DNA of 64,000 bases from Mobula hypostoma (lineage: Eukaryota), in assembly GCF_963921235.1 (NCBI RefSeq), contig NC_086097.1, positions 111,788,001-111,852,000 on the forward strand, given 5' to 3'. This document shows, one piece after another, positions 4,111 to 64,000 of this stretch. Both the position numbers and the translations under genes were made by a program. Numbering within the stretch: position 1 is the first letter of the stretch; every line of letters begins with the position of its first letter. The notes under the pieces were generated by a model. It ran no database searches and was not told the origin of the DNA. It saw only the letters and a list, made by a program, of their open reading frames with translations.

Positions 4111-7100
4111 AATCCTATCTCTCTATATGTCCTATTACAACCTTAGCCTCCCAAATGATCCCGAGTTCATCCAGTTCCATCTCTAACTCCTTAACGTGGA
4201 GTGTTAGAAACTTGCAGTTGTTGTCGCCGGGGATACTGGAGGTCTCCTGGACTTGTCACATTCTGCAAGAGGAGCATTTCACTTTCCTGCTTGGCATCTC
4301 TACTGTTCTAACTGAGCAAATGTAAAGGGGTGGGGGTTGGGGGAATCTACCTACAGCTTTTGTCTGCTTTCCCTGACTGAAGTCTCGAAGAGCTAAAGCC
4401 TCAAACTCTCCACTCTTAACTCTGACCACTACAACAATGGCTGCTTCGCCTTCCCCTGCCTTCCTTTAATTTGTTCTTGCTAATCAATCCCAAATGCTGA
4501 TTGACCGCTGCTCAAAGCTCCAGGTTTGCTGTGAGTAACTACCTTTTCCACTCGATCAGCGAACTTGAATGAACTATGTTTTCTCAGGCTTCTGCTCTCT
4601 CCGATTGCATGTTGCCTCAGGATATCGCTTCTTTTCTCCGAACTAACTAGTCTCCATGTCCTTCTCCATGTTAAATGCAGATAAGAAGTATCATCTTTTT
4701 CGATTCACTTTTATGTTTATCTTGTGTCCTCTTTTTAAGATTCTGATTTCCACTTTACGTGTACTTCTACATCCTTCATGCTTCCTCCAGAGATTTGCCT
4801 TAGATGACATACAGTTTGCTTCCTTTTTCCTGACTAGAACCTCAATATCTCTTGTCAGCCAGGGTTCCCTAATATTACCAGCCTTGCCCTTAACTGTAAC
4901 AGGAACATGTTGCATCCATTGTCAAAGGCCATGCCCTATTCTCGCTACTACCATTGGGTAGGAGGTACAGAATCTTTAGGTCCCACACCCAGCAGGTTTG
5001 GGAACAGTTATTCTACAAACATCTGGCTCCTGAACTAATGCGGATACCTTCATTCGTGACTGCTCTGAACCTATTCTATGATCTACAGATTCATTTTCAA
5101 GGACTCTTTCATGTTCTCAGTGATAGTTTTATTTGCAGTTTGTTTTTTGCACATTCGTATTTGTCAGTCTTTGTTTATGTATAGTTTTTTGTTAAATTAT
5201 ATTGTTTGTTTCTTGAAAATGCCTGCAAGAAAATGAATCTCCATGCTGTATATGTAAACTTATATGTACTTTGATAATAAATATACTTTGAATTTTTCTT
5301 ACCTCACTTTTTAAATCCTGCCACTTGCCAGACATCTCTTTACAAGCTAATAGCCTCTCCCAATCAACATTCGGAAATTCCTTTCAAATGTCATGAAAAT
5401 TAGCCTCCCAATTTAGGACTTCACCTAGCAGATCATTTCCATCTTTCCTATAAATAGTATTAAGCTAATAACTATGGTTGCTGGTCTCAAAGTGCTCCTG
5501 CACTGACACATCAGCCACTTGCCCAGCCTCATTTCCTAAGAGGAGGTAAAGGGTAGTCCCGTCTGTAATAGGGCCACCTACATATTGCTTAAGAAAACTT
5601 TCCTGCCTCGTCTAACTCCTAGTACAATGCCAGTCCCAGTCACCTACCATTATAATCTTGCAGCTTGTTGCAATTTCCTTACATATTAGCTCCTCTGATT
5701 TCTTCTGACAATTGGGAGGGGAGGCAGTCTGTAGTATAATCCCAACAGAGTGATCACCCCTTTAATTCTAAGTTCTATACTTATCCCTTTCTATGTTTCC
5801 CCTTGGAATATCCTCTCCAAGTACTGCTGTGATGTTCACTCATCGATTTTGCGTTTCCTCGACCTCTCTTGCCTCCACCTCTGTCGCACAGGAAGCATTG
5901 GTAATTGAAGATTGATTTGCCACTCCTGCCCATCCCTCAACCAGTTTGACTGGTGTAGGATTGCAGAGGTGGATTTCCCAGCATTTCCAGTGCATCTGTC
6001 ATTTGGAACACTATGGACATGTATGTGTACTGTAATTTTCTTTCTTTTTGTATAGTCAGAGAACCTTTGGCCTTTATGAGTCTATATTGGCTTTCAGATC
6101 AATCCCTTTATTCCCACTTATTACTCCTAATTTATTTGCTTGCCCATACCTGCCCTGGTGGATTCAACTCCTGGTCAGCTACATGATGGGTTATTTACAG
6201 TTAAACTACAAGCGCATCTTTCAAATGTGGGGAAGCCAGAGCAAACCACATTGATAGCACTTGAACCTGGATTGCTGGAGTTATTAGACAGCTGGACGTC
6301 CTTTAGCCCCACCATATCACCCCCCCCACACCCCCACCAATCAAGTAGGGGTAGTGTAAGTCCAGTAAGTTTATTTTTGGTTTGCTTCATAATCGTCCAT
6401 GTCTGCCAACTCGATTCAACACATGGCTGAATCCCGGCTTTTGTAAATGCAGGAAATCTAAATTTTTATCTGAAGCTATTGAACAATCGAAGCAACATTA
6501 AACAAACTTTTAACATTATTAGTCTAGATCATGCTTTGTAATTTTTCTAAATGTAGAGCAATTTTATTTAAATTTTTCTGAGTGAGTACTTTCCTCAGTA
6601 TGGTAAAATCCAGATGGACTGGCAGTAGATAACATGCAGTTCATAACGATATTGATAGAATTACATCAGTTATTTGCCTTCTATCCTCCGATAAGGAAAG
6701 ACGATTCTAGCTCTACACATGGATATACTCAGTTGAAAGTTGCACTGTTGCTAAAAGCAGTTGATATGGAGTACATCAAATTTATGATATTACATTGACT
6801 TGTCTTTTGGGAATTATAAATCAGCAAATCTGCATGGGAATTCAGCATATGAGCAGTTTCTGAAATATACATGGTCTGCTTGAAATCCTTTTTTTAGAGG
6901 GAAAGGATGAGGGCACTTTCTTCTTTTAAGCAAATGCATGAGTAGACGATTATCACTTTTTAAATAAAATAATGCCTTAGTGATGCTTGCATTCTGTGTC
7001 ACTCATGAGATTAATGATTGATTGTTGTATCCAACAATGACAGGAAACTGTATAGGAGTGTTTTTAAAGTGGAAAAGCTGGGGCAGTTCCACTCTCTCTA

Positions 7101-7111
7101 CCTCAGAAGTC

Positions 7112-7249
7112 ACAACATGCTGTCAGGACGAAGGGTTCCGGCCCAAAACGTCGACCGATCTTTTCCACTGATGCTGCCCGACCTGCTGAGTTCCTCCAGC
7201 GTGTTGTGAGTGCTGCTTTGACCCCAGCATCTGCAGATTATTTTGTGTT
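7112..7249 (+). mobile_element. Short Penelope-like element 3' end with degraded hammerhead motif
   Basis: gacgaagggttccggcccaaaacgtcgac plus terminal tail; 13-bp direct repeat tacctcagaagtc at 7099-7111 and 7250-7262. Confidence 0.75.
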
Positions 7250-8519
7250 TACCTCAGAAGTCTAGGTCCAGTGGTATGAGTAGTTGTCACAACTAGGTCC
7301 CCTTGGTTGCAATGGATGACTATGATTTCTCTGCCTTGTCATACTCTTTGCTCGCGACGAAGCATTGTGAAACCTGCCTTTCTGGCTATTGGATCTCACT
7401 GTACATCTCATCCACCCAGTCTGCTGGAGCTGACTTTGCGTGCTTGGACAGGCATGTCCCTATCTCACCAGGTATGAGGTCCCTGACTACCCTCACCTGG
7501 TTTAGCCCATCTGTTGAAGCAGTGTTGTGGCCGCTGTTGCGTGCAAACAGCTACTTGGAGTCATAGGTGAGAGATGAGTGGGACCAAAGGTGAGTGAGCA
7601 ACCTTGGAATAGACATGACGAGCTAATTTACCAGAGGTGCTATCCCTCCCTGGACACCCCATAACACTCCTATACACTACCTAATACCCAACGTGGATAT
7701 AAGGTGATGCTTGTGATGGATACACTTTAAGATTTATTTCCTGTACATGTGCAGTGCCTCAGTTACTGGTTTTCCTTAGTCTTGTGTGTCTACTTTGTAA
7801 CACTTGCAAACTATATATCCCAAAAACAAGTATTCAGTAGTTTGTTCAATGAGTTCATGTTCCAGATGGGAGTGTGTTCCAAACATTGCTATTGTCTTTG
7901 CAGTGACCTTCTCAGTCGTTATGATAATGAGATTATAATACAGCTGCAGTTCTATTTTTGTTTGCATTTTGCTTGAGGCAAAAATTCTTATTGCATCTTA
8001 TATGATGTTTTCATTTCTGGTGTGTATTGTACCTTTTGTTAGTTTGAGTGAATAGATCTTTTGAAATTTCTTGATGCTTTTCTTTAAATATTATTACTTT
8101 TGTGTTATGTTACTTTTATCGGGAGTTACCAGTTCTGTCAAAACGAGGTTATTTCAACCAATTGCCCTTTTATGTTTCTTCCTTTCCGTGCAGTATTTTG
8201 TTAAACTCAAAACAGCATTTGTGCAGTTCATGAATTCAATAAAAATAAATGTGGATGGTATCTTAACTAGTAAGAATCACAGTGGTTCTTCCCTGTGTTA
8301 AATGTAGTTAAGAGACTTTTGCTATTCCTCATTCTTTGCAAAATATTTCATTTCAATTTATCTGGGAAATACTATTCTCTCTTGGATTGTGATTCATCAG
8401 CAAATTAAATGGACATTTCTTTTTGAACTGTGGAAAATTTATTTCTTTCACTAAAAGCAAACAAAATCTACATGTCACAGTTTGAGCTTAAATTTATTAA
8501 ATATTTTATTTCATTTTAG

Positions 8520-8582
8520 GAAGCACTGTTCTGGGAGAAAAGCATGGTTTGGCAAATACGCAAGTTTCCGATATCTCCACTG
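8520..8582 (+). CDS. LRP12: LRP12 exon 2 (63 bp, phase 1-1; segment between signal peptide and CUB1)
   Basis: Acceptor tcattttag|GA and donor TG|gtatgt. Translates (G)STVLGEKHGLANTQVSDIST(A), resembling the recalled human exon 2 peptide GNGALAEHSENVHISGVSTA, and splices in frame to 35141. Confidence 0.8.
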
Positions 8583-8952
8583 GTATGTTTGCATTCATTC
8601 TAATAAGATGATTTTACTTGGGTGGTGGGGAAAAGGTGTAATTTGGTACGATGGTTTTCTAATTTGCTCTTGTGGTTGAAGGACATTATTCAGACCTATT
8701 TCAAAGTAACATCTTTATATTGGGTATAATGAAAACCAAATAAGAGGTGAAAGAAAATTGAGTTAATGTAGAACGTTGTATTTGGATATTATTTTTGGAA
8801 TTGGATTGAATTAAAGGTAATTGTAATATATTTTATTTTAATTGTTATAATAGTTTAATTGATTAATGTGTAATTGATACAAATATGGTGGTCAATTAGC
8901 GTAATATTCCAAACCCCTGGTTCTGTTCAAAAATGAAAATGCATTGCGTTTA

Positions 8953-9774
8953 CAACACACACAAAAAATGCTGGTGGAACGCAGCAGGCCAGGCAGCATC
9001 TATAGGAAGAGGTACAGTCAACATTTTGGGCCGAGACCCTTCGTCAGGACTAACTGAAAGAAGAGATAGTAAGAGATTTGAAAGTGGGAGATCCGAAATG
9101 ATAGGAGAAGACAGGAGGGGGAGGGATAGAGCTTAGAGCTGGAAAGTTGATTGGCAAAACAGATACAAGGCTGGAGAAGGGAGAGGATCATGGGATGGGA
9201 GGCCTAGAGAGAAAGAAAGGGTGAGGGGAGCCCACCATAGTGAGAGGGACAGAGGGAGAAAAAAGAGAGAGAGAGAAAAAAAGGGGGGGAAATTAATAAA
9301 TAAGGGATGGGGTACGAAGGGGAGGTGGGGCATTAATGGAAGTTAGAGAAGCCAATGTTCATGCCATCAGGTTGGAGGCTACCCAGACGGAATATAAGGT
9401 GTTGTTCCTCCAACCTGAGTGTGGCTTCATCTTGGCAGTATAGGAGGCCGTGGATAGACATATCAGAATGGGAATGGGACGTGGAATTAAAACGTGTGGC
9501 CACTGGGAGATTCCCCCTCCCCCTCCTGAATGAAAGTGAACATCAAGTGCTATCAACCCCATCTTCTAGAACTTATTGTAGCCTTCCCCCTCCCCCTCCC
9601 CCTCCCACTTTCAAATCTCTTACTATCTCTTCTTTCAGTTAGTCCTGATGAAGAGTCTCAGCCTGAAACCTCGACTGTACTTCTTCCTATAGATGCTGCC
9701 TGGCCTGCTGCGTTCACCAGCATCCTTTGTGTGTGTTGCTTGAATTTCCAGCATCCGCAGATTTCCTCGTGTTT
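8953..9774 (-). mobile_element. 5'-truncated Penelope-like element with GIY-YIG C-terminus and inverted terminal segment
   Basis: Minus strand 9509-9333 reads LPVATRFNSTSHSHSDMSIHGLLYCQDEATLRLEEQHLIFRLGSLQPDGMNIGFSNFH*. 8953-9090 is inverted at ~9601-9738, each arm with a CTGA(C/T)GA hammerhead-like motif. Confidence 0.85.
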
Positions 9775-9810: not shown

Positions 9811-10994
9811 CAGGGGTCCCCAACCTTTTCTGCGTTGCGGACCGGTTTAATATTGACAATATTCTTGCGGACTGGCCGACCCGGGGTGGGAGGGAGGGGT
9901 AGGGTTGCCAACGGAGAAAAGTAGCAGTCAAATACGTTGTTTATCCAGATTGAGACTACAATGACCATGAAGCCTTGCGCGGGCACCAGCGCACATGCGT
10001 GACTTGCGCATGTACCTCCCTATGAATCGTTTTTGGCGATTCTGTTGGGGGGGGGCGGGGCGGAGTGTTAATCACGACCGGAATACAGGTGATTAAGTAG
10101 CTAATACACTCAATTTAGTTTCTAAAACGGTTTATCTAACGAATTTAATATTAAACACACAGCGCATATTTTCCTCGCATGAATATAGTGATAAGTCAAT
10201 TATCAGGAGAACTTGAAGTAAGTGTTGAATTAAATTCCAGTAGAAGTGGTAGAGGCAGGTTCGATATTATCATTTAAAGAAAAATTGGATAGGTATGTGG
10301 ACAGGAAAGGAATGGAGGGTTATGGGCTGAGTGCAGGTCGGTGGGACTAGGTGAGAGTTGCGTTCGGCATGGACTAGAAGGGGCGAGATCGCCTGTTTTC
10401 GTGCTGTAATTGTTATATGGTTATATAAGTCTGTCAATAGCATCATAGTATTTAAGTAACGTTTGGATATTAAACACACAGCACATATTTTCCCTGTATG
10501 AACATATAAAATCATTGCAACACACCAATATCGCTGCATCAGTGGAAGACCTGGGCTTGTTTCCCTGCAACAACATGGTCCTATCGAGGGGTGATGGGAG
10601 ACAGCGATACTCGAAGGGGGTTCCTTATGTCCAGTCTATTCTGCAATTTAATTTTCATTGCATTCATTGCAGAGATATGTTGGAAATGGAAGAAACGTTT
10701 TCAGTGCTTTCGTGGCTATCTCAGGATATTCAGCCTTGACTTTGATCCAGAATGTCGGCAGAGATGTTATGTCAAACATACTTTTAAGCCCGCCGTCATT
10801 TGCAAGCTGGAGGAGTTGATTTCCTTCCCGCGTGGACATGGATATGCGCGGGTAATGAACTCACGTGTGTTCAAGCTCAACAGTGGGCGTGACAGGGAAT
10901 GAGGAAAGGTGCAGCTGACTCATATCGCCAAATCATATCGTTTCCTCGCGGCCCGGTAGCACATGCTCTGTGGCCCGGTGGTTGGGGACCGCTG
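9811..10994 (-). mobile_element. hAT (Charlie/Buster-like) internally deleted DNA transposon with nested CR1 3' fragment
   Basis: TIRs caggggtccccaacc / ggttggggaccgctg; 8-bp TSD ccctacat (9803-9810, 10995-11002); transposase C-terminal remnant FWIKVKAEYPEIATKALKTFLPFPTYLC. Confidence 0.9.
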
Positions 10995-13304: not shown

Positions 13305-15260
13305 TTACTTGTATAGACTCAGTCTGTCTCCTAAGTAAATATAGATGCAAAAAATGCATTTAAGATCTTTTGGCTCCACGCATGGATTACCATTCTGATC
13401 TTCCAGAGGATAAATTTTGTCTTGCAGTCCTTTTGCTCTTAACGTGTATCTGTAGAATCCCTTGGGATTCTCCACCACCTTGCCTACTAAGGCAACCCTA
13501 ATGCATTCTTTTATCCCCCCTGATTTCTTTCTTGAGTGTTCTCTTGCATTTCTTATACTCCATAAGCACTTCATTTGTTCCTACCTGCCTATACCTGTAA
13601 TGCACCTCCTTTTTCTTTCTTAAGCAGGGCCTCAATATCTCTTGAAAACCACGTAAACACAAAATACTCTGCAGATGCTGGGGTCAAAGCAATGCGCACG
13701 GCTGGAGGAACTCAGCAGGTCGGGCAGCATCAGTAGAAATGAACCTGTTTTTTGGCAATGGTGTACTTAGTAAGTAGGAGGCCTTCAAAATTGAGTACAA
13801 AGCTTGTATTTGCCTGTCAGAATAAAGGGTAAAGATAACAAGTGTAGGGAACCTTGGTTTTCAAGACAACACTCACAACATGCTGGAGGAACTCAGCAGG
13901 TCGGGCAGCATCAGTGGAAACAAACAGTCAATGTTTCCGGCTGAGACCCTTCGTCAGGACTGAAGAGGGAGGGGGCAGGGGCCCTGGAAAGGGCACTTAC
14001 CAGCCTTCTCCTTCCCACCCTCCCCCCACCCGCTCTATAGGGCCCCTGCCCCCTCCCACTTCAGTCCTGACGAAGGGTCTCAGCCGGAAACATTGACTGT
14101 TTGTTTCCACTGATGCTGCCCGACCTGCTGAGTTCCTCCAGCATGTTGTGAGTGTTGTCTTGAAAACCAAGGTTCCCTACACTTGTTATCTTTACCCTTT
14201 ATTCTGACAGGCAAATACAAGCTTTGTACTCAATTTTGAAGGCCTCCTACTTACTAAGTACACCATTGCCAAAAAACAGCCTGTCCCATTCCACGCTGGC
14301 CAGATCCTTTATGATACCGTCAAAATTGGCCTTTCTCCAATTTAGAATGAAAACCTGTGGACCAGCCCTATATTTTTGTATATTTACTTTGCAACTAATG
14401 CATTATGATCACTAGATGCAAAGTGTTCACCCACCCAAACTTCTGTCACCTGCCCTGTTTCATTCCCTAATAGCAGATCAAGTATCGCACTCTCTCTTGT
14501 TGGGACTTCTACATACTGATTAAGGAAACTTTTCTGAACACATTTGACAAGCTCAATCCCATTTAGTCCTTTCAGAGTATGGGGGTTCCAGTCAATATGT
14601 GGGAAGTTTAAAATCACCTACTATAGCAACTTTGTGTTCCTCGCAACAGTGTGTGATCTCTTTACATATTTGTTCCTCTAAATCGCTTGCACTATTGGTG
14701 GTCTGTAATGTAACCCCATTAATGTGGTCATACCTTTCTTCTTTCTCAATGCCACCCATAATGCCTTACTAGATGAGCTCCCCGTCTGGCCTGACTGAGC
14801 ACTGCCATAACACCAGGTTTCTTCCTTTAATCCCTTCCATTCTCTTGCATCTAAAACAATGGGATCCTGGAATATTGAGCTGCCAGTCCTGCCCCTCCTG
14901 CAACTAAGCCTCACTAATTGGTACAATATCATAATTTCAGGTGTTGATCCATGTCCTGAGCTCATCTACCTTTCCTATGATATTTCTTGCATTGAAATAT
15001 ACACAGCACAGGACATTAGTCGCACCATACCTCAACCTTTTGATTCCTGACTTTATCTGAGGTCCTAGGAACATCCGTCTCCACAACCTCTCTACTATCT
15101 GTTCTGGCACTCTGGTTCCCATCCCCTGCAACTCTAGTTTAAACCCCACTGTGCAGCACTAGCAAACCTTCCTGTTAGGATATTAGTCCACTTCCAGTTC
15201 AGGTGCAAATTGTCTCTTCTGTACAGGTTCCACCTTCCCTGTGGAAGAGAGCCCAATGAT
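13305..15260 (-). mobile_element. Decayed CR1 LINE interrupted by a Penelope-like palindrome
   Basis: ENPKGFYRY, NFPHIDW, SAILDLLLGNE, SSDHN and YFNARNI endonuclease motifs in several broken ORFs; continues at 16480-16760. Confidence 0.85.
13652..14157. mobile_element. Penelope-like insertion with inverted ends and an inverted copy of flanking DNA
   Basis: 12-bp TSD tcttgaaaacca (13640-13651, 14158-14169); inverted arms 13745-13985 and 14039-14279. Confidence 0.85.
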
Positions 15261-26130: not shown

Positions 26131-26688
26131 TTTACTACATACTGCATGTAACCAATCCTTATGCCTGCCATTATAATACTCGCACAGCAATTTGCTGTAA
26201 TTTTGTTGAATCTTTTGCTTGGCACAGTCCAAACACATTAAGGTTAACCCTTTTGTTGCCAGTTACAGCTTAAAAACAAAATGATGGATTTGTTAACAGT
26301 ATCTTCATAATTCCTTAGAATCTGCCTAATCTTATGAGTATTTTGTAAGTGTTTTGTCACTAGTTTAATAACGGATTCCAAGATTTTATCTTCTATTTGT
26401 ATTGGGTTACCTAATTCAAGTTTTCTCTCTCCCTCATATTTAGTGGGTTATATTTACTATATATAACTTATGGGAACTGTTCTCAAATCTATGGAATAAT
26501 GTTCCCCTCCCCGGCAGCTAAGCTTGTTAGCGACCAGAAGCAAACCTCCACTGGCTGGAATAATCCCAAGCAAAAAAGGAGATGGGTATAAATTTTGGAC
26601 ACAAGAGCTCCCGAGACTTTCTTAGTGCTGTCTCTGAGACCTAAAATATTCTAGATCATATATTAGAGACCTTGCCTCTAATCTATGA

Positions 26689-26903
26689 AAACAACAGGAA
26701 TTCTGCAGATGCTGGAAATTCAAGCAACATACATCAAAGTTGCTGGTGAACGCAGCAGGCCAACCAGCATCTGTAGGAAGAGGTACAGTCGACGTTTCAG
26801 GCCGAGACCCTTCGTCAGGGTCTCGGCCTGAAATGTCGACTGCACCTCTTCCTACAGATGCTGCTTGGCCTGCTGCTTTCACCAGCAACTTTGATGTATG
26901 TTG
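26689..26903. mobile_element. Penelope-like palindromic mini-insertion
   Basis: 35-nt tail then arms 26724-26811 / 26817-26904; 13-bp TSD ctctaatctatga (26676-26688, 26904-26916). Confidence 0.85.
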
Positions 26904-27911
26904 CTCTAATCTATGATCTAGAATTTGGCTGCTCACTAGAGTTTTCACAAATATTCAATTCCATTAGCCACTCCTCAGTCACAAACAATATGACAAGGAC
27001 ATTTTGGCATGAACCATTGTGTAGAATGCAGCATTTACATCACAAGCACCAGGCAACAGCCATCTCCAAAGAGAGTAAACACATTCCCTTAGAATCCATT
27101 ATTATTGCTGTTATTAAATCCCACTGTCACTTTGTGGCTTGAAGTGGGTGCAGGTCCGAATTGGCCAGAAACATAACTAAACCAGGTAAAGTACATGCAA
27201 GAAAGGAACAAAGGCAAGGTAACTTGTCTCTTGACAGCTTGAAGCCTTTACAGGAATAGTGGGTTGTAGAATTCTTTTGAATTACCATTTTGCTTGGGCC
27301 TTGCTTGATATCAGTCACCAGCTTGAGCTTGGACACATCTTTCATTGGCACAAAATGCAATTTCAAAGATTTCATTGTAAAGAGCTGTTGTAGGTGTAAT
27401 GGGCTGTAAATATGTGTGTGTTTTTTTGTTTAATTGCCAATCTGCCCAGCCTCCATCCCAAATTACATAAGGGGCTAAAGGTTCCTAGAGTGGTAAAGGA
27501 AAAACACCTACAGGTTTCTGACTGGTGGTTGGAAATGTTAGCTCTCTGAGTGTAAATAGTTAACCTTTTTGTTGCATTTACGTTCAGTAGTCAAAGTTTG
27601 GGAGCAATTAATGGGTAAATGCTGCTCATTATTTTGTTTAACCTTTTTTGAACAACATTGGCCATCCAAATGTCCTTGCACTGTTATTCACAGCCACATA
27701 ATGGATGTTTGGGACCATAAATATGTATTGCAGCACAGTAATGTGGAACATTGCTTGGGGTTCTGTAAGAAGTTTGTATGTTCTGCCGGTGACCACATGG
27801 ATTTCCTCCCACATTCCAAAGACATACGGTTAGACTGAGTGTGTTGTGGGTATACTGTGGTGCCCAGCTCAATCTCCACTGATCTGGTTTGACACAGAAT
27901 GACACATTTAA

Positions 27912-30341: not shown

Positions 30342-31829
30342 TCTATATACTACTAAAACTCTCGTGCTCTGTCTGTCTGTTTGTCTGTTGGTGACCTCCA
30401 ATTAACGCAAACGGTGTATTACAGCGGCACTTTTTTTGGCTAAATCGAATTAAAATGCGCTAACTTACAGAATGCAGGCAAAGTTCAGGGTTATATATTC
30501 GTATAAAATTGCTCATTCACCAAAAATCAACAGGCTATCTTTCACCTGAGACCCGATTGGCCATCATGGAAATCGGGATGCCACAGCTCGACGCATGTGC
30601 ACGGATAGCCTCAGCAGCGCCTCACGATGCTCACAGAGCTGGCTCCACCTTCCATGGAGACCGCGACGCCACACCACTGCGCATGCGCACGGCCAGCCTC
30701 AGCAGCTTGGAGGCTTGGGTGTTACTGCTTCCTATCTTCTATCAAGCACTAGGGTGAAAATATATGGATAGCCTAATTATGCCGTGTGGAAAGAGAAGGG
30801 GGACATTATGGTCAAGAGATGACACTAAACGTCGTTGGGAAGCGGCAAGGAGAGGGAAAGAACAACAATTGGATGAGGCCAGGGCCGCACGAGTCCAGGA
30901 TCAAAGAGTCAGGACAAAAAAGATGAGAGAAGACGAAACAGAGGAGGACAGATATGCACGTCTCCAAAATGACAACAATAGACACAGATAGAGGAGAGAA
31001 CAAGAATCTGATCAGGCCAGGACCACATGACTCCAGGATCAGAGAAGAAGAACAAGTGGTAGAAGAGAGGATGAGACGAAGGATGAAAGGGCTGCGTGTC
31101 TCCAGAATGATAAAAACAGGCAGAGAAGAAGGTGAGAGGAAGAGACAGAGGAGAAAAGGAAAGATCAACTCGAATATGCGACACAAAGTAATTATTGCGA
31201 GAGTTGCTGAAGACAACAATGGCCGCTTTCGACGACAATACCTCAACAGAGGAAGAGCAAGGCAAAATGCACAAGTTGCATGCCGTCACGTTTCTGCTGA
31301 TGTTGGTTCGATGACCAGAGTATGCCCTCACTGTCGTGCCTTCCTATTCACTGGAGAAACCACACATTTCTGCTGTATGAAGGGACAGGTCAGGATAAGC
31401 AATTTGCAGCCTCTACCTAATGAGCTCCTCAATTTGTACAGCAATGATAAACCTATTGCAAATGAGTTCAGGAAGAACATCAGACAATACAATTGCCTCT
31501 TCCAAATGACATCCTTTGGTGCCAAAGAAGTCATTCCAACTAGGAATCGATGGAATCCTCCTGTGATTATTCAAGGCCAAATCTATCATTACATCGGACA
31601 TTTAATTCCAGACCCGATTCCTTCAAATTTACTTCATGGATACTTAATGTTCATTCTGGTCACATATTTGTCTTGTTATGTGTCTTTTAATAAGCTGAGT
31701 TTTTCTTCTTTAATTTCCAAATCAAGGAGATAGCAATAGCATTCAGGAAAATTTACTGTTCATTCTGGCCGCATCAGACTGCACTACCCTTCTCTCAAAG
31801 GGTGCCCCAACGGGTCACCCCGTTGTCTA
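30342..31829 (+). mobile_element. Non-autonomous (internally deleted) Helitron
   Basis: A|TCtatatact 5' end; hairpin caacggg-tca-cccgttg (31808-31824) then CTAG|T; ORF with CPHCRAFLFTGE..FCCMKGQV, FRKNIRQYNCLFQMTSFG and IQGQIYHYIG, typical of the RepHel N-terminal region. Confidence 0.9.
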
Positions 31830-33650: not shown

Positions 33651-34199
33651 GTCTGTTCCTTTGTTTTATCTTAAAAGTATGTGTCTGTCTACTTACGCAG
33701 TGATGTAAAATTGGGAATTCTTCCCCTTTTAAATTTGTTTTGAGCCTTTTTTAAAAAAAAAATGGCATGTAGAGATGCACATGGATGATGAAAAATTGGA
33801 GGGCTATGTAGGAGGGAAGGGTTATATTGATCTTAGAGTAGATTTAAAAGGTCAACACAACATCATGGGCCAAAAGGCCTGTACTATGCGGTAATACTGC
33901 CTTTTTATCACTGGTGAGATCACTCCACATGGAGATGGAAAACTGCATTTTGACCACTAGTGAGATTGCTTTGCTGTGGAGAGGGGAGACTGCCTTTCGA
34001 TCGCTGGTGGAATTGCTCTGCTGCTGGAGAGGGAAAGGCCTGCCGCCTGACCTGAAGAATGTCACCAGGTTTTCTGTGTTTTTTATATGGACGTGGACTA
34101 TAGACTTCTTTTCAGTCTTGTAGTTTTTTCGCCCTATCTTTCTAGCTTTTTTTTTGTGTGTGGGAGAGGGGGATTTGGGGGTTGATGAGCCTATTCCAT

Positions 34200-34485
34200 G
34201 CAACACACATCAAAGTTGCTGGTGAACGCAGCAGGCCAAGCAGCATCTATAGGAAGAGGCGCAGTCGACGTTTCAGGCCGAGACCCTTCGTCAGGACTAA
34301 CTAAAGGAAGAGTGAGTAAGGGATATATCCCTTACTCACTCTTCCTTCAGTTAGTCCTGACGAAGGGTCTCGGCCTGAAACGTCGACTGCGCCTCTTCCT
34401 ATAGATGCTGCTTGGCCTGCTGCGTTCACCAGCAACTTTGATGTGTGTTGCTTGAATTTCCAGCATCTGCAGGATTCCTGTTGTT
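34200..34485. mobile_element. Penelope-like spacer-less palindromic insertion with two hammerhead motifs
   Basis: 34200-34451 is a 252-bp palindrome centred on ggata|tatcc with one mismatch, followed by a 34-nt tail; 14-bp TSD tgagcctattccat (34186-34199, 34486-34499). Confidence 0.9.
34353..34388 (+). ncRNA. Minimal type I hammerhead ribozyme motif (Penelope-associated)
   Basis: AGUC-CUGACGA-A-GGGUCUCGGCCU-GAAAC-GUC-GACU: stem I AGUC/GACU, core CUGANGA and GAAA, short stem II, loopless palindromic ACGU stem III, GUC triplet. Mirror copy on the minus strand at 34263-34298. Confidence 0.7.
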
Positions 34486-35140
34486 TGAGCCTATTCCATT
34501 TTTTGTTTGTTTTTTTTGTGGGGAGGAGGGATTTTGGGGGGGGGTGTTGATGATCATGATGATCAAAAGGCAGTTTTGTGGCCATCTGGAGAAGAATTTC
34601 AGAGTTGTATACTTTGATAATAAATTCACTCTTGGTGTTCTGAGCCTATGTTCTGAAGTTGGTGAGGGAAAATGGTAGATACGGAAAGTGATTGGTGGAC
34701 CCAAATAAGGGAGGGATAATGGGCAGATGGAAATGGGTATGGAAGGGGATAAGAAAGGTGAACCAAGGAAGAAGGCGGCCAGGTAGATGGGTATGTGGGT
34801 GAATTTTATTTCCTGTATAATTGAGTTTTGTAATTTGTTTCCACCGAGCACCTACCAACTGTTGTCTCAATATTCTCCTCTAGTTCCATGTATTAACTCT
34901 CTTGCATTTCTATACTGATTATCTTCCCTCTGCATTCTGTCCTGAAGTGAGGTCTCATCCCAAAATCTCGATCATCGCTTTGCTTCCAGGGATGCTGGAC
35001 TTCTTCCAGAAGTTTGCTTTTTGTTTCAGCTTCCAATATCTGCAGTCCTGTGTCTCTATCTTGGTATTGCAATGACATCTTAATTTGGGTAATATTGTCT
35101 GTCTTAATCACATTAATTATCTAACTTACCTTTTTTTTAG

Positions 35141-35276
35141 CTTGTGGTGATGTACCAGAACAACTCAGGGCACCAAATGGAATAATTACAAGTCCAGGTT
35201 GGCCTTTTAACTATCCAACTGGAACTAATTGCAGTTGGTATATCCAAGGCAATCGAGAGGAAATCATCACCATCAG
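35141..35276 (+). CDS. LRP12: LRP12 exon 3 (136 bp; first half of CUB1)
   Basis: ttttttttag|CTTGT ... ATCAG|gtaagc. Translates (A)CGDVPEQLRAPNGIITSPGWPFNYPTGTNCSWYIQGNREEIITI(S), a CUB domain start. Confidence 0.95.
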
Positions 35277-45365: not shown

Positions 45366-45990
45366 TTATGCTTGTTAATTTAATATTAATACTAATGTAT
45401 CGTGCAAGAGTGGGCTTCTTGATCACCTTTTGTGTGTATGCATGTGTCAGTACTGTTACATACAGTATGTCATTGTAGTTAATGTCTGATGGAAGGCAGA
45501 GTAATTTCAGTGGGGAGCACTGCACATCACTGTGAACTGTCTGGGCACAATCGCATGACTATAACAACAGTTTAGGTTGATGAAAGACAGGCAACAACAA
45601 AATAACTTGTAGCATTTGTGAAAAATAACTCCATGGTCAAAGCTACAGTGCCTATAAATCTTATTAATCTTCTAATCCTTCAGTGTTTTGTTATCCTGAT
45701 TTATTTTGTTTCTTCAATTCATGTACTTGTAGCAGCAATTAAACCACTGCTTCTCATCCCTGAAAGAGGTACAGATGTGTTTTAAACACTTAAGTCTAGC
45801 CTTAACCTCAGCTAGACACTTGAATATTGGTACACACTGGTGTGTTCAACTAATCAGCACCTTGTTGGATTTGGTTGAATGCTGAACATATTGAGAATAT
45901 GTGAATAGGGCATGTTCTGATACTATGTCATGACATCTGTTTTGTAATGTTGCTCTTAAAAATGGTAACTATTAAACTTTTCTGTCACAG

Positions 45991-46193
45991 TTTTCAGGAA
46001 TTTGATATACAGACCTCAGCTTGGTGTAGTTCAGACTGGTTAACTATAGGAACACGTAAAAGCATCGAAGGAATTCGGGTGTGTGGTTCGTCTATTCCAG
46101 CACCATTTATTTCTTCAAAAGGCCATGTCTGGATTGAGTTTCATTCAGATGACAGATACACTGGAAAAGGCTTCAGGCTCTCTTATGTGATAG
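45991..46193 (+). CDS. LRP12: LRP12 exon 4 (203 bp; second half of CUB1)
   Basis: tctgtcacag|TTTT ... ATAG|gtaaat. Translates FQEFDIQTSAWCSSDWLTIG...VCGSSIPAPFISSKGHVWIEFHSDDRYTGKGFRLSYVI(G); phases match exons 3 and 5. Confidence 0.95.
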
Positions 46194-47079
46194 GTAAATA
46201 CGGAATTGGTATATCTTTTGAAAAATGAATGTAGGATGTTTTACAGCCTTATTTAACAACGTTCAGACATACAATCCACCGATATCTCTGAGTTGTTTCC
46301 GTACAGGTCTTTTGTATATCCCCAGTTTAAATTATCTTGTGGATGAGCTAGGAAGTTGAGGCCGTATGGTTAATCTCTAGCCATATCCTGGAACATTGCC
46401 TTACCCTGACTCTACAAACTCATTCTTCCACTTGCTTCTTCTCGACTTCACATTTTTAGTCATCTTCTGGCTTATATCCCACATTCTATCTTATATAAAT
46501 TTGAAACCATTCAAAATAGCTGCCCGTTTCCTAACTCTGTCCAAACACTCATGTGTACAATGAATTATGTTAGCTTTGGTTTAAACAATGTCGCTGTTTT
46601 AATTTTCTTACCTTTGTGTCTTAATTCTCTTCTTTGTATCCTCCTACAGTCCTACAGCTTGCTAATATCTCTGTGTTCCTCCAAGTATGATTGCTTGAGC
46701 ATTCTGATTTTTACTAAGAACTTTAGTGGCTGTGAATTAAACTGCCATGGCCCATACCTTCTGGTATTCTCTCCCTAACCAAAATTTTTGGTCATCTGTC
46801 CTTTTTAACTTCCTTTCTTTTGGATTGGCACTGAAGTTTGTTTTAAAATGTTGCTATTGATGAACTCACATATATCATTATTATTATGGATTACCATATT
46901 GTTGGAGAAGGCTGGAGTATGAGATATCTTTGAACTTGGGTGTGTTGAGATCTTGCATCTCAGATCATTCTTTGAGTATATTCTTCAATTTTATATGTAT
47001 AATATTGCAAGGGCATGTGTATTTAAGGAAATGCTTCCTTAATTTGTATTAAACTGACATTTGCATGTCATCTGAGGTT

Positions 47080-47262: not shown

Positions 47263-48352
47263 GGTAGTACACATTAATTGGCAATAATATTAATCATAAT
47301 GAATTAATGAACAGATTGGATTGCTCATTTTTGGAGTTAAGGGGTGTTCAGAAATTCACAAATACATAAAGACTGAAGATTTTTCTTGGGCTGCAGGAAT
47401 GCAGGTTCTTGTCCAAAGTGTTCTTTTTCCCCATTATTTCACTGTTACTAAGATTTAGAAAGTACTTGCATTGTAGAACAGCAATGTTTTCGCAGTGAAA
47501 TTTTAGAGCATTTCAACAGGGAGGAAGGCCCATGACAGAGCCAAGTACAGGACCAGAGCAACGTGGCACGAATTATCTTCTATAATTTTCATGTCTGAGA
47601 TTGCGTGAAGAAATCTCATGCACCATTCTTTGGCAGTACTTGCCTTCCATTAATTACTTACATTCATTATGTCCCCAAACTAGCTCTTTATCTTGCTCCC
47701 TTAAATGCAGGGGTCACGCCGCAATAGAATGAAACTGTTAAAGAAGGGTGAATGTGTCATTAGAAAATAACAGTGAAAATGAATGAATGATATTTCTGCT
47801 GTCATTGATTATTTTTGCTAGCAAACAACTGGAATAAGGCTTTCTTAGATAATCCATTTTAACCTCTTGTGCTCCTCCTTAAATATCACATGCTTAGTAC
47901 AAAGCATCATGCGGAACTAAAAGCACATTTTGCCTTTTGAGTGGTTAAAGTGACAGCTGCTTTTATGAGGAGGAAAATTATAAGAGTACCAACAGCATTG
48001 ATTTTAATTGTTCAGGTTTACAGCTTTACATTCTGTATGCTATGCTTCCTGCAGGGTAAAAATGGGTACATATGTTAGAATGCTTCATTAGCTATAGAAT
48101 GTTTTAGGCTGTCTTAAGATTGTGAAAAGTGTTAAATAAATGTAACACACATAAAATGCTAGAGGCAGCATCTATGGAAAGGAATAAAGAGTCGCCGCTT
48201 TAGGCTGAGACCCTTCGTCAGGACTGGAAAGGAAGCGGCATTCAGTAACTTTTGTTGAGGAATTCTAATGAAAGAACTGTAAGAAAAATTTTTTGAAGTT
48301 TTTATTTCTCCAGCTACTTGCTTTTCACATTGTGATTTAATTATATTTTCAG

Positions 48353-49454
48353 GAAGGTCTGTGGAGGCAAGCTGTAACTGGGACCAGTTCCACTGCAATA
48401 ATGGAAAATGTATCCTAGATATCTGGAAATGCAACTCCATGGATGAGTGTGGGGATAATTCTGATGAAGAATTTTGTGAGCTGTCAATGCCCCCTACTGA
48501 TTTCCCATTTCAGCCTTGCACTTATGATCAATTCCAGTGCCTTTCCCGATATACAGCATCTTATACATGTTTACCTGAATCCCTGCGATGCGATGGAAAT
48601 ATTGACTGCCTTGATTTGGAAGATGAAATAGATTGTGATGTTCCTAGTTGTGGTGAATGGCTAAGAAACTTTTATGGCACGTTTAATTCTCCAAATTATC
48701 CTGCCTTTTATCCTCCTGGAAGCAACTGTACGTGGCTAATAGATACGGGAGACCGACGTAAAGTTATTTTACGCATTAATGATTTGAAGCTGGATGGCAT
48801 AGGCTATGGGGATTATATAAAAGTGTATGATGGTCTGGAGGAAAATTCACACAAGTTGCTCCGCGTTCTAACGCCCTTTGACTCCCGGACACCAATAACG
48901 GTTATCTCCTCTTCGGGTCAAGTTCGCATACATTTCCATGCTGACAAAGTGAATGCAGCTAGAGGTTTTAATGCCACTTACCAAGTTGAGGGATTTTGCC
49001 TTCCATGGGAAATTCCCTGCGGAGGTAATTGGGGTTGCTATTTTGAACAGCAGCGCTGTGATGGTTATTGGCACTGCCCAAATGGACGAGATGAACACAA
49101 CTGCAGCTCATGCCAGAAGGACGAATTCCCCTGTTCCCGCAGTGGTGTGTGCTACCCTCTGGCTGACCGTTGTAATTACCAGAATCATTGCCCAAATGGC
49201 TCTGATGAGAAGAACTGTTTCTTTTGCCAACCTGGTAATTTTCACTGCAAGAATAACCGCTGCGTTTTTGAGAGTTGGGTGTGTGACGCACAGGACGACT
49301 GTGGTGATGGCAGTGATGAAGAAAACTGTCCTGTGATCATCCCCACCAGAGTTATAACTGCAGCAGTCATTGGAAGTTTAATCTGTGGGTTGCTGCTTGT
49401 GATTGCTCTAGGATGTACCTGCAAACTTTACTCTCTCAGAATGTTTGAACGCAG
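48353..49454 (+). CDS. LRP12: LRP12 exon 5 (1102 bp; 2 LDLa, CUB2, 3 LDLa, transmembrane helix)
   Basis: attttcag|GAAGG ... CGCAG|gtaagt. Contains FCQPGNFHCKNNRCVFESWVCD and PTRVITAAVIGSLICGLLLVIALGCTCKLYSLRMFERR, which match recalled LRP12 better than LRP3 or LRP10. Confidence 0.97.
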
Positions 49455-49629
49455 GTAAGTTCTGAATTATGATACCATATTTGTTGTGAATAAATTAAGA
49501 AGTACAGTTCTTGTAAAACAAAATTATTTCATATAATCTAAAGAAATATTTTCAGATACTCTGTGCCTGCTTTAGAATGAAGGTGGAAGCATCTTCCTGT
49601 CTGACCGGTTTTAAGTATTTTGGTGGGAT

Positions 49630-62822: not shown

Positions 62823-62940
62823 AATTTTATGATTTATGTCAGTGACAATAAATATGATTCTGAGAACTGATCTGTAACTGCTGCTCTTTTGTGCCACTTT
62901 GAGAAGAACTCAGTTGTTTTTTTTTTATTATGTTTGTAAG

Positions 62941-63073
62941 GTCTTTTGAAACCCATTTATCAAGAGTTGAAGCAGAACTACTACGAAGGGAGGCTCCACC
63001 ATCCTATGGTCAGTTGATTGCACAAGGCTTGATTCCTCCAGTGGAAGATTTCCCAGTGTGTTCATCAAGTCAG
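62941..63073 (+). CDS. LRP12: LRP12 exon 6 (133 bp; juxtamembrane cytoplasmic tail)
   Basis: T-rich tract then tttgtaag|GTCT ... AGTCAG|gtaata. Translates (R)SFETHLSRVEAELLRREAPPSYGQLIAQGLIPPVEDFPVCSSSQ, in phase with exon 5. Confidence 0.95.
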
Positions 63074-64000
63074 GTAATATCTTAACTGATTCTTATTTGT
63101 ATTTACACACTGCAGCTGTAAGCTGTGCTGTTTCAGTTATGATAATGTATATGAATAAAATTAAAGGCTATAAAAGCCTACCTTTGATTCTAATAATATG
63201 AATCATGATCTTATTTGTAATCCTAGGAAGCATCACTGGAACCAAGTTTTTTTTTCACTAGATCTTTGCTTTGCCTAATGACTATGTATTTAGTCACTGT
63301 TCTTATTGCTAGTTACCTATACTAGTTATCACAACCCCATCAGGGGTTGGTTCCATCCTGATTATAGGTTTAGGATAAAACTGATGATGAGATAGAGGAG
63401 GATTTCGGATATAAGAGAGTTATCAATGAGTGGCTTTATTTGCATGTGAATTGGAGTTGGGGTGTTATAGCATGGTCATGTTAATAATTCAATAACTGGG
63501 TAGTGCTTGTTTCTACTAGCTTGCTTAGTTTCCCACCTGGGTGTTACGGATGCCGACAGCATGATAAAATTGGACATAAGGCTGAGGGGGGGAAAAGTCA
63601 TTGGCAAACCAAGATCATTCTGAATTGGCTTAACCCCTACTTCAAACATGGATTTGGTCAGGGGAAGATTTATTACATTCCCAAGAATGGGATCATTGAG
63701 TCATAAACAGTCTGCTGGAAGAACTTAGTGGGAGAAAAGGAATTGTTGACGTTTCGGGTTGAAACCCTGCATCTGTACTCCAAGGGATCTGTAATATTGG
63801 CTTCAGCTATTGGTTTAACTTCTCCCACCTGATGTCAGGATTAATTTGAAAGATTTTGAGCTAGTGCCAGGAGGTAGCTTGGAATCATAGAATTGTTATA
63901 GTACAGGAGGCAACCATTTAGGTTTGTATTGCCTTTTAATACCATTTCTCTTCTGCAAATTAATTTTCCTTCTCAATGGGCAAGTTACAGGTTTAAATCA

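What the first reader, a model, noticed from the sequence alone, without database searches (positions are those of the whole stretch)
34186..34499. Spacer-less 252-bp palindrome of Penelope-like ends with head-to-head hammerhead ribozyme motifs
Seen: 126-bp arms with one mismatch and no loop, a 34-nt tail on one side only, a 14-bp TSD, and an intact-looking minimal hammerhead motif in each arm. Established: Penelope-like elements carry minimal type I hammerheads and often show an inverted end plus a ~34-nt tail. Inference: this is a non-coding, MITE-looking fold-back product of the Penelope RT/GIY-YIG machinery. In LRP12 pre-mRNA the sense ribozyme would be masked by its own antisense arm, giving a long dsRNA hairpin (possible ADAR or Dicer substrate) or a DNA cruciform.
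Basis: partly seen in the sequence, partly recalled or inferred. Interest (0 to 1): 0.75.

Follow-up and report, generated by a model that had tools for sequence, protein, structure and literature searches.

The report
Fold-back Penelope retroelement insertion in intron
This hairpin-shaped 286-base insert in a ray gene's intron is a short, two-armed scrap left by a very abundant Penelope-like jumping gene, whose way of inserting is already known to leave such head-to-head copies, so it is real but ordinary.

Summary
The terminus is Penelope-like: a sister copy in the window joins it to a GIY-YIG C-terminus, 91% identical to an RT + zinc-finger + GIY-YIG protein. It is not a fixed, MITE-like unit. 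The window holds four head-to-head insertions with four different turning points, and public contigs show many more. Inverted arms, TSD, junction palindromes and a one-sided 30-40-nt tail are published Penelope features. The sense hammerhead is masked in any read-through RNA (78.5 kcal/mol penalty). It also lacks the usual G10.1-C11.1 pair and has no dimer partner. Most likely mechanism: both target nicks prime cDNA, at the two known start sites, and one cDNA snaps back on itself. A neighbouring insertion whose inverted copy runs 110 bp into host DNA fits this. ADAR, Dicer and cleavage claims are untested. This scan noted the same pattern before elsewhere in this genome. New member of a known kind; low interest.

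The parts
34186..34199 (.). Left copy of the 14-bp target-site duplication
   Evidence: the word occurs only twice in the window
34200..34325 (-). Inverted, tail-less arm: 3' end of a Penelope-like element ending at the inner of the two family end points
   Evidence: the same end point is seen in sister copies and in 152/155/10 contigs of runs X1/X5/X9 that leave the sequence at 34452
34262..34299 (-). Minimal hammerhead motif on the left arm (sense on the minus strand)
   Evidence: motif scan; mirror of 34352-34389
34323..34328 (.). Fold-back centre ATATAT; the middle AT (34325-34326) is not family sequence; folds as a 4-nt loop
   Evidence: (loose ends at 34327, and a centre 4 nt shorter in other copies)
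34326..34451 (+). Sense arm: 59 nt up to the predicted cut site, then 67 nt downstream
34352..34389 (+). Minimal hammerhead motif: stem I 34352-56/34385-89, CUGACGA 34357-63, stem II 34365-68/34373-76 closing G-U, GAAA 34377-80, palindromic ACGU, predicted cut after C34384
   Evidence: sequence inspection against PMC4209133; constrained fold; activity not tested
34452..34485 (+). 34-nt one-sided Penelope 'tail'
   Evidence: present on exactly one outer end of each of the four inverted insertions
34486..34499 (.). Right copy of the 14-bp target-site duplication
35140..35276 (+). Next LRP12 exon downstream (host context; the insert is intronic)
   Evidence: tblastn of P0145; covered with 0 differences by a 3265-nt contig of run X9
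26676..26916 (.). Sister insertion, same subfamily: 13-bp TSD, tail on the left, turn inside the hammerhead at a 3-nt AGG/CCT match with a 5-nt loop
8953..9773 (.). Sister insertion, asymmetric: the long tail-less arm carries the element's GIY-YIG C-terminus (9333-9506, minus strand) and 3' UTR; tail on the right; no TSD of 7 nt or more found
13640..14279 (.). Sister insertion, other subfamily: 12-bp TSD (13640-51, 14158-69), tail-bearing arm 13652-13744, and an inverted copy (13745-13985, 240 of 241 identical) of the right arm, right TSD and 110 bp of host flank

Best explanation
It is a one-off, recent, heavily 5'-truncated insertion of a hugely amplified endonuclease-bearing Penelope-like element (Neptune/Nematis type) into an LRP12 intron of a ray. 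Most likely it does nothing for the host. Steps: (1) The GIY-YIG nuclease made nicks 14 nt apart, giving the TSD (TSD shown; cause inferred). (2) One nick primed cDNA at the outer start site (end of the tail) and the other at the inner site, 34 nt upstream. The two ends are shown; that they are RT start sites is shown in vitro only for the anole element PAc. (3) One cDNA stopped about 125-160 nt in, gained a few A/T bases, folded back on a 4-nt loop and copied itself. The copy annealed to the cDNA from the other nick, which gives a symmetric centre and near-identical arms (inferred). (4) The template had not been cut by its hammerhead, since both arms run 59 nt across the cut site (shown). In read-through RNA from either strand the antisense arm is made first and zips up the sense motif, so no cleavage is expected (computed). 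My odds that it is an ordinary Penelope insertion by-product are about 0.9. The confidence given here is for this specific joining mechanism as well.
For: Penelope link: the copy at 8953-9773 carries the same terminus behind a GIY-YIG C-terminus, 91% identical to P0001, E 1.3e-24. P0001 shows RT 'YIDD', a CX4CxxC linker and GIY-YIG with internal CxxC (Pfam GIY-YIG E 0.00046). 9 of 16 profile hits in the window sit in four head-to-head insertions (12 of the 16 were in the training alignment). All four have the tail at one outer end, and 3 of 4 have a TSD of 12-14 bp. Run contigs: 85,362 records of X1 lie on the 2-kb stretch, and many leave the sequence at the tail-less end. Of the 15 joints shown (of 991), 14 cross the centre with the two arms starting 0-14 nt apart, as snap-back predicts. 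At 13640-14279 an inverted copy runs through the tail-less junction and TSD into 110 bp of host DNA, which requires DNA-templated fold-back. The tail-bearing arm there differs from the other arm, which suggests a second priming. Papers: PAc nicks and extends both strands, and its tail is the stretch between two RT start sites (PMC11167929). Inverted pLTR, TSD, one-sided tail and junction palindromes, read as self-priming, are described in PMC3846280 and PMC8557442.
Against: No contig bridges this locus, and no empty site appeared among the rows shown, so the locus itself is not independently read-verified. The joint table is a depth-selected 15 of 991. Near-symmetric joints can also come from library fold-back chimeras or from how joints are detected. 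Restricted to the observed range, the null probability is only 0.013. The 8953-9773 insertion is strongly asymmetric, has about 60 nt of filler, arms differing at 12 of 139 aligned columns, and no TSD. The Pfam GIY-YIG scores (18.8-20.9 bits in 3 of 4 proteins, none in the fourth) are below the 22.6 cut-off, and the 57-aa window fragment itself hit no Pfam family. No full-length element lies in the window. The host-flank argument rests on one locus.
Confidence: 0.6

Rival explanations
1. Same Penelope by-product, different join. Two independently primed cDNAs (perhaps from two RNAs on a dimeric enzyme) meet and anneal end to end at a microhomology, with no snap-back. Alternatively, self-priming occurs on an antisense template, as Arkhipova et al. 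2013 proposed.
For: PAc extends both strands and is predicted to be a dimer. The junctions show short matches (AGG/CCT at 26817-26819; AT at this centre). The asymmetric insertion at 8953-9773 and the non-identical tail arm at 13652-13744 fit two templates.
Against: Independent truncation would seldom give equal arm lengths, yet 2 of 4 window insertions and 14 of 15 shown joints are near-symmetric. It does not explain the inverted copy of host flank at 13745-13985.
Confidence: 0.25
2. A self-propagating palindromic non-autonomous element (MITE-like in look, retro-mobilised): the whole hairpin is transcribed and re-inserted as a unit by Penelope proteins.
For: Some exact junctions stand in single contigs of high depth. 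The centre 4 nt shorter than this one has depth 326 in X1 and 142 in X5, against about 6-10 for flank contigs, and several joints recur in two or three runs.
Against: All four window insertions turn at different points, and 991 joints were listed in all. With about one terminus per 4 kb in this window (16 hits in 64 kb), repeated independent turning at the same microhomology is enough to give tens of copies per junction (my estimate; contig depth is not a copy number). Re-copying would not by itself restore the exact tail-less end.
Confidence: 0.07
3. The hairpin acts on the host: a 126-bp dsRNA in LRP12 pre-mRNA that is edited by ADAR, diced, or affects splicing of the exon 641 nt downstream; or a ribozyme with a built-in antisense lock.
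For: It lies in an intron of a gene on the + strand and folds very stably. The single mismatch is A-C in the sense RNA, which I recall as a favoured ADAR context.
Against: It is young (1 mismatch), with no sign of conservation. Four such hairpins lie in the same intron. The motif lacks G10.1-C11.1, has no second sense copy for dimer formation, and minimal monomers showed no cleavage in PMC4209133. A 3265-nt contig of run X9 matches only the exon on this stretch. Incidental editing may well occur without being a function.
Confidence: 0.05
4. Assembly or read artefact (fold-back chimera).
For: Perfect palindromes are a known sequencing artefact (recalled); no contig spans the locus.
Against: An artefact would mirror the flanks too. 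Here the flanks are distinct, the TSD is direct, the tail is one-sided, the arms differ at one base, and an older sister (4 differences in 89 nt) has the same build. An X1 contig matches 34017-34186 with no difference.
Confidence: 0.03

Closest known systems
Inverted-pLTR insertions of EN+ Penelope-like elements, e.g. Pen2a_Av and the Pen2 derivative of Adineta vaga (Arkhipova et al. 2013, PMC3846280; passages and Discussion read) and the general scheme in Craig et al. 2021 (PMC8557442; passages read)
   Same: Head-to-head inverted terminal copies inside one TSD, a one-sided tail of 31 bp there and 34 here, and palindromes at the inverted junction.
   Different: Here no ORF lies between the arms: the insert is only two 125-126-nt ends. 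The host is a ray, and the family is far more abundant.
PAc (Poseidon of Anolis carolinensis; Frangieh et al. 2024, PMC11167929; parts 1-2 of 4 read)
   Same: Two 3' end points bracketing a tail, downstream of a hammerhead motif; uncut RNA used as template.
   Different: PAc is Penelope/Poseidon clade, while this family has the CX2-5CxxC linker of Neptune/Nematis. The parts read do not treat how inverted arms are joined.
Minimal hammerheads (min-HHR) of metazoan PLEs (Cervera and De la Pena 2014, PMC4209133; parts 1-2 of 4 read)
   Same: Type I core, short stem I, a bulged base before stem II, palindromic 15.2-16.2; that paper also notes pairs on opposite strands about 100-700 bp apart.
   Different: The stem II closing pair is G-U, not the conserved G10.1-C11.1. 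Activity is untested here.
MITEs (DNA-transposon derivatives; features recalled)
   Same: Short, non-coding, hairpin-forming, TSD-flanked.
   Different: Variable turning point, variable 12-14-bp TSD, asymmetric ends, and arms that belong to a retroelement.

Membership tests
EN+ Penelope-like element | Terminus linked to an ORF with RT and C-terminal GIY-YIG endonuclease | tested here: met
   The copy at 8953-9620 places the terminus about 260 nt behind a GIY-YIG C-terminus, 91% identical to P0001, which has RT YIDD and GIY-YIG. The link is through a sister copy; this insert has no ORF.
EN+ Penelope-like element | CCHH motif with two cysteines between GIY and YIG | tested here: met
   By inspection of P0001/P0002/P0006 against PMC8557442; Pfam GIY-YIG is below its cut-off.
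EN+ Penelope-like element | [quoted passage not shown] | tested here: met
   34 nt; one-sided in 4 of 4 inverted insertions in the window.
EN+ Penelope-like element | Inverted 5'-truncated copy and variable-length TSD | tested here: met
   TSDs of 14, 13 and 12 bp in 3 of 4 inverted insertions, and 13 bp at a solo copy.
EN+ Penelope-like element | Full pLTR-ORF-pLTR partial tandem | not testable with these tools
   No whole genome is held; pattern scans of three prokaryotic or viral collections found 0 loci.
Neptune clade | CX2-5CxxC zinc-finger-like linker between RT and EN | tested here: met
   CKRNKCYTC in P0001 and P0002; shared with Nematis.
Neptune clade | RT phylogeny separating Neptune from Nematis | not tested
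   No labelled reference RTs were at hand; Neptune is favoured only because PMC4209133 lists it in fishes.
Minimal hammerhead (min-HHR) | Core CUGANGA, GAAA, UH triplet, stem I of 4-5 bp | tested here: met
   34352-34389, both arms.
Minimal hammerhead (min-HHR) | Palindromic positions 15.2-16.2 allowing a dimer | tested here: met
   ACGU at 34380-34383; but any read-through RNA has only one sense motif.
Minimal hammerhead (min-HHR) | Conserved G10.1-C11.1 pair | tested here: not met
   Position 11.1 (34376) is T in both arms here and in both arms at 26.7 kb; it is C in three other window copies. This lowers expected activity, not kinship.
Minimal hammerhead (min-HHR) | Self-cleavage | not testable with these tools
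   The hammerhead fold costs 78.5 kcal/mol against the hairpin in context; even a single arm does not adopt it as its minimum-energy fold.
MITE | Homogeneous unit with symmetric terminal inverted repeats and fixed TSD length | tested here: not met
   Four different centres, TSD 12-14 bp, one-sided tail; many further joints.
Non-LTR retrozyme (Cervera and De la Pena 2020; search listing only) | Head-to-tail tandem units each with a hammerhead (recalled) | tested here: not met
   The units here are head-to-head.
miRNA precursor families (Rfam mir-4850, mir-4788, MIR848, MIR5229) | Score at or above the family's gathering threshold | tested here: not met
   38-50 bits against 80-93; generic hairpin matches.

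The most novel reading that the evidence does not exclude
The palindromes are not only by-products. Some fold-back junctions have become self-propagating, ORF-less retro-palindromes, mobilised as whole hairpins by Penelope proteins and shared between ray species (identical centres at high contig depth in runs X1 and X5), with the antisense arm keeping the hammerhead shut so that the template stays whole. A weaker and likelier form (about 0.4) is that these very numerous short insertions record a combined two-nick priming plus snap-back mechanism, and so make the open question of how Penelope inverted repeats form testable by counting.
Probability: 0.07. Interest if true: 0.6.

Novelty: new member of a known kind. 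Interest (0 to 1): 0.2.

Why it matters
As a single locus it matters little: it is one of about 16 copies of this terminus in 64 kb. Its value is as a clean specimen. How Penelope-like elements make their inverted repeats is still called undefined (PMC8557442). A ray genome with very many short, young two-armed insertions could decide between snap-back and end-to-end joining of two cDNAs by simple statistics. It would also mean that ray pre-mRNAs carry many long perfect hairpins, loosely like inverted Alu pairs in primates (analogy recalled), whose editing could be measured.

Tried and rejected
No whole genome was available, so no genome-wide count of palindromes was made. Pattern scans for the hammerhead region found 0 loci in metagenome contigs, viral contigs and prokaryotic genome contigs. 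Rfam gave no hammerhead family hit, only sub-threshold hairpin matches. Pfam gave no hit for the 57-aa window fragment. The first translation was in the wrong frame and was corrected. The profile-free search against 50% representatives gave 140 unnamed hits and added no clade label. Run search: no RNA holder listed, which is no evidence on expression; the RNA label of X9 is a guess. The contig lay could not bridge the locus, show an empty site among the rows displayed, or show editing. A-to-G rows were 7 in X9 and 8 in DNA run X1, pooled over all copies, so they are uninformative. A search for a paralogous empty site in the window failed: the 23-nt match at 52544 lies in unrelated sequence. 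The idea that the turn marks the hammerhead cut was rejected: the centre is 59 nt upstream of it, and the 14 shown joints start at 34338-34367, not 34385. Literature: nine searches. 'Penelope + Mobula + repeat' gave 0 papers. 'Penelope + twin priming + inverted' gave 2, 'Penelope + self-priming + hairpin + cDNA' 1, 'Penelope + palindromic + non-autonomous + MITE + inverted' 3 general reviews, 'Penelope + elasmobranch + transposable elements' 4 and 'Penelope + Neptune + cartilaginous' 1. These were seen as listings only, and none by title describes this family. The library lacks most subscription papers and Repbase, and I opened no supplements, so the family may already be catalogued. Passages of PMC2837043 and PMC544870 confirm only that G10.1-C11.1 is a conserved pair, not the effect of a G-U.

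Full report
Observation. The sequence is as described. The arms 34200-34325 and 34326-34451 are 126 nt each and complementary at 125 positions, with no spacer. A 34-nt tail follows on the right only, and the same 14-mer flanks both sides. It is far beyond chance: the 14-mer occurs only there in 64 kb, the perfect core has a half-length of 22 against 6-9 in 20 shuffles, and the RNA folds at -271 kcal/mol, z = -35. An artefact is unlikely, because the flanks are not mirrored, the tail is one-sided and the arms differ at one base. Still, no public contig spans the locus, so it is not read-verified.

Host context. The large open frame at 48319-49458 is LRP12 (listed as 100% identical to P0145, a protein its source names as Mobula birostris LRP12). 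Mapping P0145 gives exons at 8507-8587, about 35140-35276, 45989-46198, 48352-49455 and 62939-63076 on the + strand. The insert is therefore intronic, 641 nt before an exon. A 3265-nt contig of run X9 (RNA by guess only) matches just that exon on this stretch.

What the arms are. A profile of 12 window copies finds 16 hits of this terminus in the window, 9 of them in four head-to-head insertions (the 12 match by construction). In the insertion at 8953-9773 the long arm continues upstream through a pyrimidine-rich UTR into an ORF end...ATRFNS...RLEEQHLIFRLGSLQPDGMN.... That 57-aa piece had 8 hits among 18 candidates, all named from rays, the best 91% identical. P0001 carries RT YIDD, a CX4CxxC linker and a GIY-YIG domain with internal CxxC. 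Pfam supports GIY-YIG only below its cut-off, in 3 of 4 proteins. By the criteria in PMC8557442 (passages) this is an endonuclease-bearing Penelope-like element of the Neptune/Nematis type; I built no tree.

It is a pattern, not a unit. The four inverted insertions turn at four different points: offset 0 here, a 5-nt loop inside the hammerhead at 26.8 kb, 53 nt at 14.0 kb, and several hundred nt plus filler at 9.5 kb. All have the tail at one outer end and stop within about 2 nt of the same inner point at the other. Three have TSDs, of 14, 13 and 12 bp. Public contigs agree: 85,362, 56,666, 4,275 and 17,559 records of four runs lie on the 2-kb stretch. Loose ends mark 34452 in three of the runs, and 991 joints were found, of which 15 were shown. 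Fourteen of the 15 cross the centre with the two arms starting 0-14 nt apart. A centre 4 nt shorter than this one stands at depth 326 in X1 and 142 in X5, against about 6-10 for flank contigs. These rows are selected by depth, depth is no copy number, and library fold-backs can mimic such joints, so I treat them as suggestive. The variable centre, variable TSD and asymmetric ends rule out a MITE in the usual sense.

What is known. PMC3846280 describes inverted pLTRs inside one TSD, an optional 31-bp tail on one of them and palindromes at the junction, and reads them as self-priming (passages and Discussion). PMC8557442 gives the inverted 5'-truncated copy and 30-40-bp tail as standard, and calls the mechanism undefined. 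PMC11167929 shows for the anole element that both strands are nicked and extended, that the tail is the stretch between two RT start sites, that hammerhead cleavage needs the protein, and that uncut RNA is the main template (parts 1-2). PMC4209133 defines the minimal hammerhead, notes opposite-strand pairs 100-700 bp apart and found no cleavage for a monomer (parts 1-2). I did not find this ray family in nine searches (see Tried and rejected), but the library is partial and no supplements were read.

Mechanism. The two outer ends match two start sites, which argues that each nick primed its own cDNA. The symmetric centre, with two non-family bases and a 4-nt loop, argues that one cDNA snapped back and copied itself. 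The copy is complementary to the cDNA at the other nick and can anneal to it, giving exactly TSD, tail-less arm, arm, tail, TSD. The neighbour at 13640-14279 looks like a failed version. Inside a 12-bp TSD lies a tail-bearing arm that differs from the other arm, then an inverted copy (240 of 241) of the tail-less arm, its TSD and 110 bp of host DNA. Only DNA-templated fold-back from a cDNA already joined to the target explains the host part simply. This is inference from few loci. Plain end-to-end joining of two cDNAs remains a fair rival and fits the asymmetric 9-kb insertion better.

The ribozyme. Core, stem I and the palindromic ACGU are intact, and the predicted cut is after 34384. But 11.1 is U in both arms, there is no second sense copy for a dimer, and in either direction of transcription the antisense arm comes first. 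The core is paired with probability above 0.99, and forcing the hammerhead fold costs 78.5 kcal/mol. The masking is thus real, but it follows from the geometry of the insertion and needs no selection. Both arms extend 59 nt across the cut site, so the template was not cleaved there. ADAR, Dicer and cruciform effects are plausible and untested.

Earlier notes of this scan on other parts of the same genome reached the same reading; they are unchecked AI notes and I do not count them as support. Verdict: real, correctly recognised as Penelope-derived, a new member of a known kind; interest 0.2.

Noticed in passing
window 13640-14279: Penelope insertion with a 12-bp TSD in which an inverted copy of the tail-less arm runs through the TSD into 110 bp of host flank (240 of 241 identical), while the tail-bearing arm is a different variant; a possible fossil of snap-back overshoot plus a second priming.
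   Followed up: partly
window 34330-34351: A pyrimidine tract ending in CAG lies just before hammerhead stem I, like a 3' splice site. PMC4209133 places the D. virilis Penelope intron end at the 5' end of helix I. The palindrome's only mismatch falls on this C (CAG to TAG in the left arm).
   Followed up: no
joints, element positions 34338-34367: The best-supported fold-back joints in public contigs cluster at the 5' part of the hammerhead. This may be ascertainment, since other subfamilies diverge upstream of 34353, or a real stop point of the RT.
   Followed up: partly
window about 33890-34199 and 34500-34670: The insert landed in another dispersed repeat: high contig depth on both flanks, and a joint 34188 to 34590 in all four runs. 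Family not identified.
   Followed up: no
P0003, P0007, P0008: Gene models of rays named ATP synthase subunit C3-like, VKORC1L1 and ABHD14A contain this element's endonuclease C-terminus: exonised Penelope pieces or annotation errors.
   Followed up: no
window 7099-7262: Solo, tail-bearing copy of a second subfamily with a 13-bp TSD, starting at the 5' edge of the hammerhead region.
   Followed up: partly
window 30927-31733: 268-aa open frame whose C-terminal part recalls a Helitron Rep/helicase N-terminal region (recalled, not searched).
   Followed up: no
window 10148-10190 and 10467-10510: A 16-nt exact direct repeat spaced 319 nt, continuing as an imperfect repeat of about 40 nt; not a clean TSD.
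   Followed up: partly
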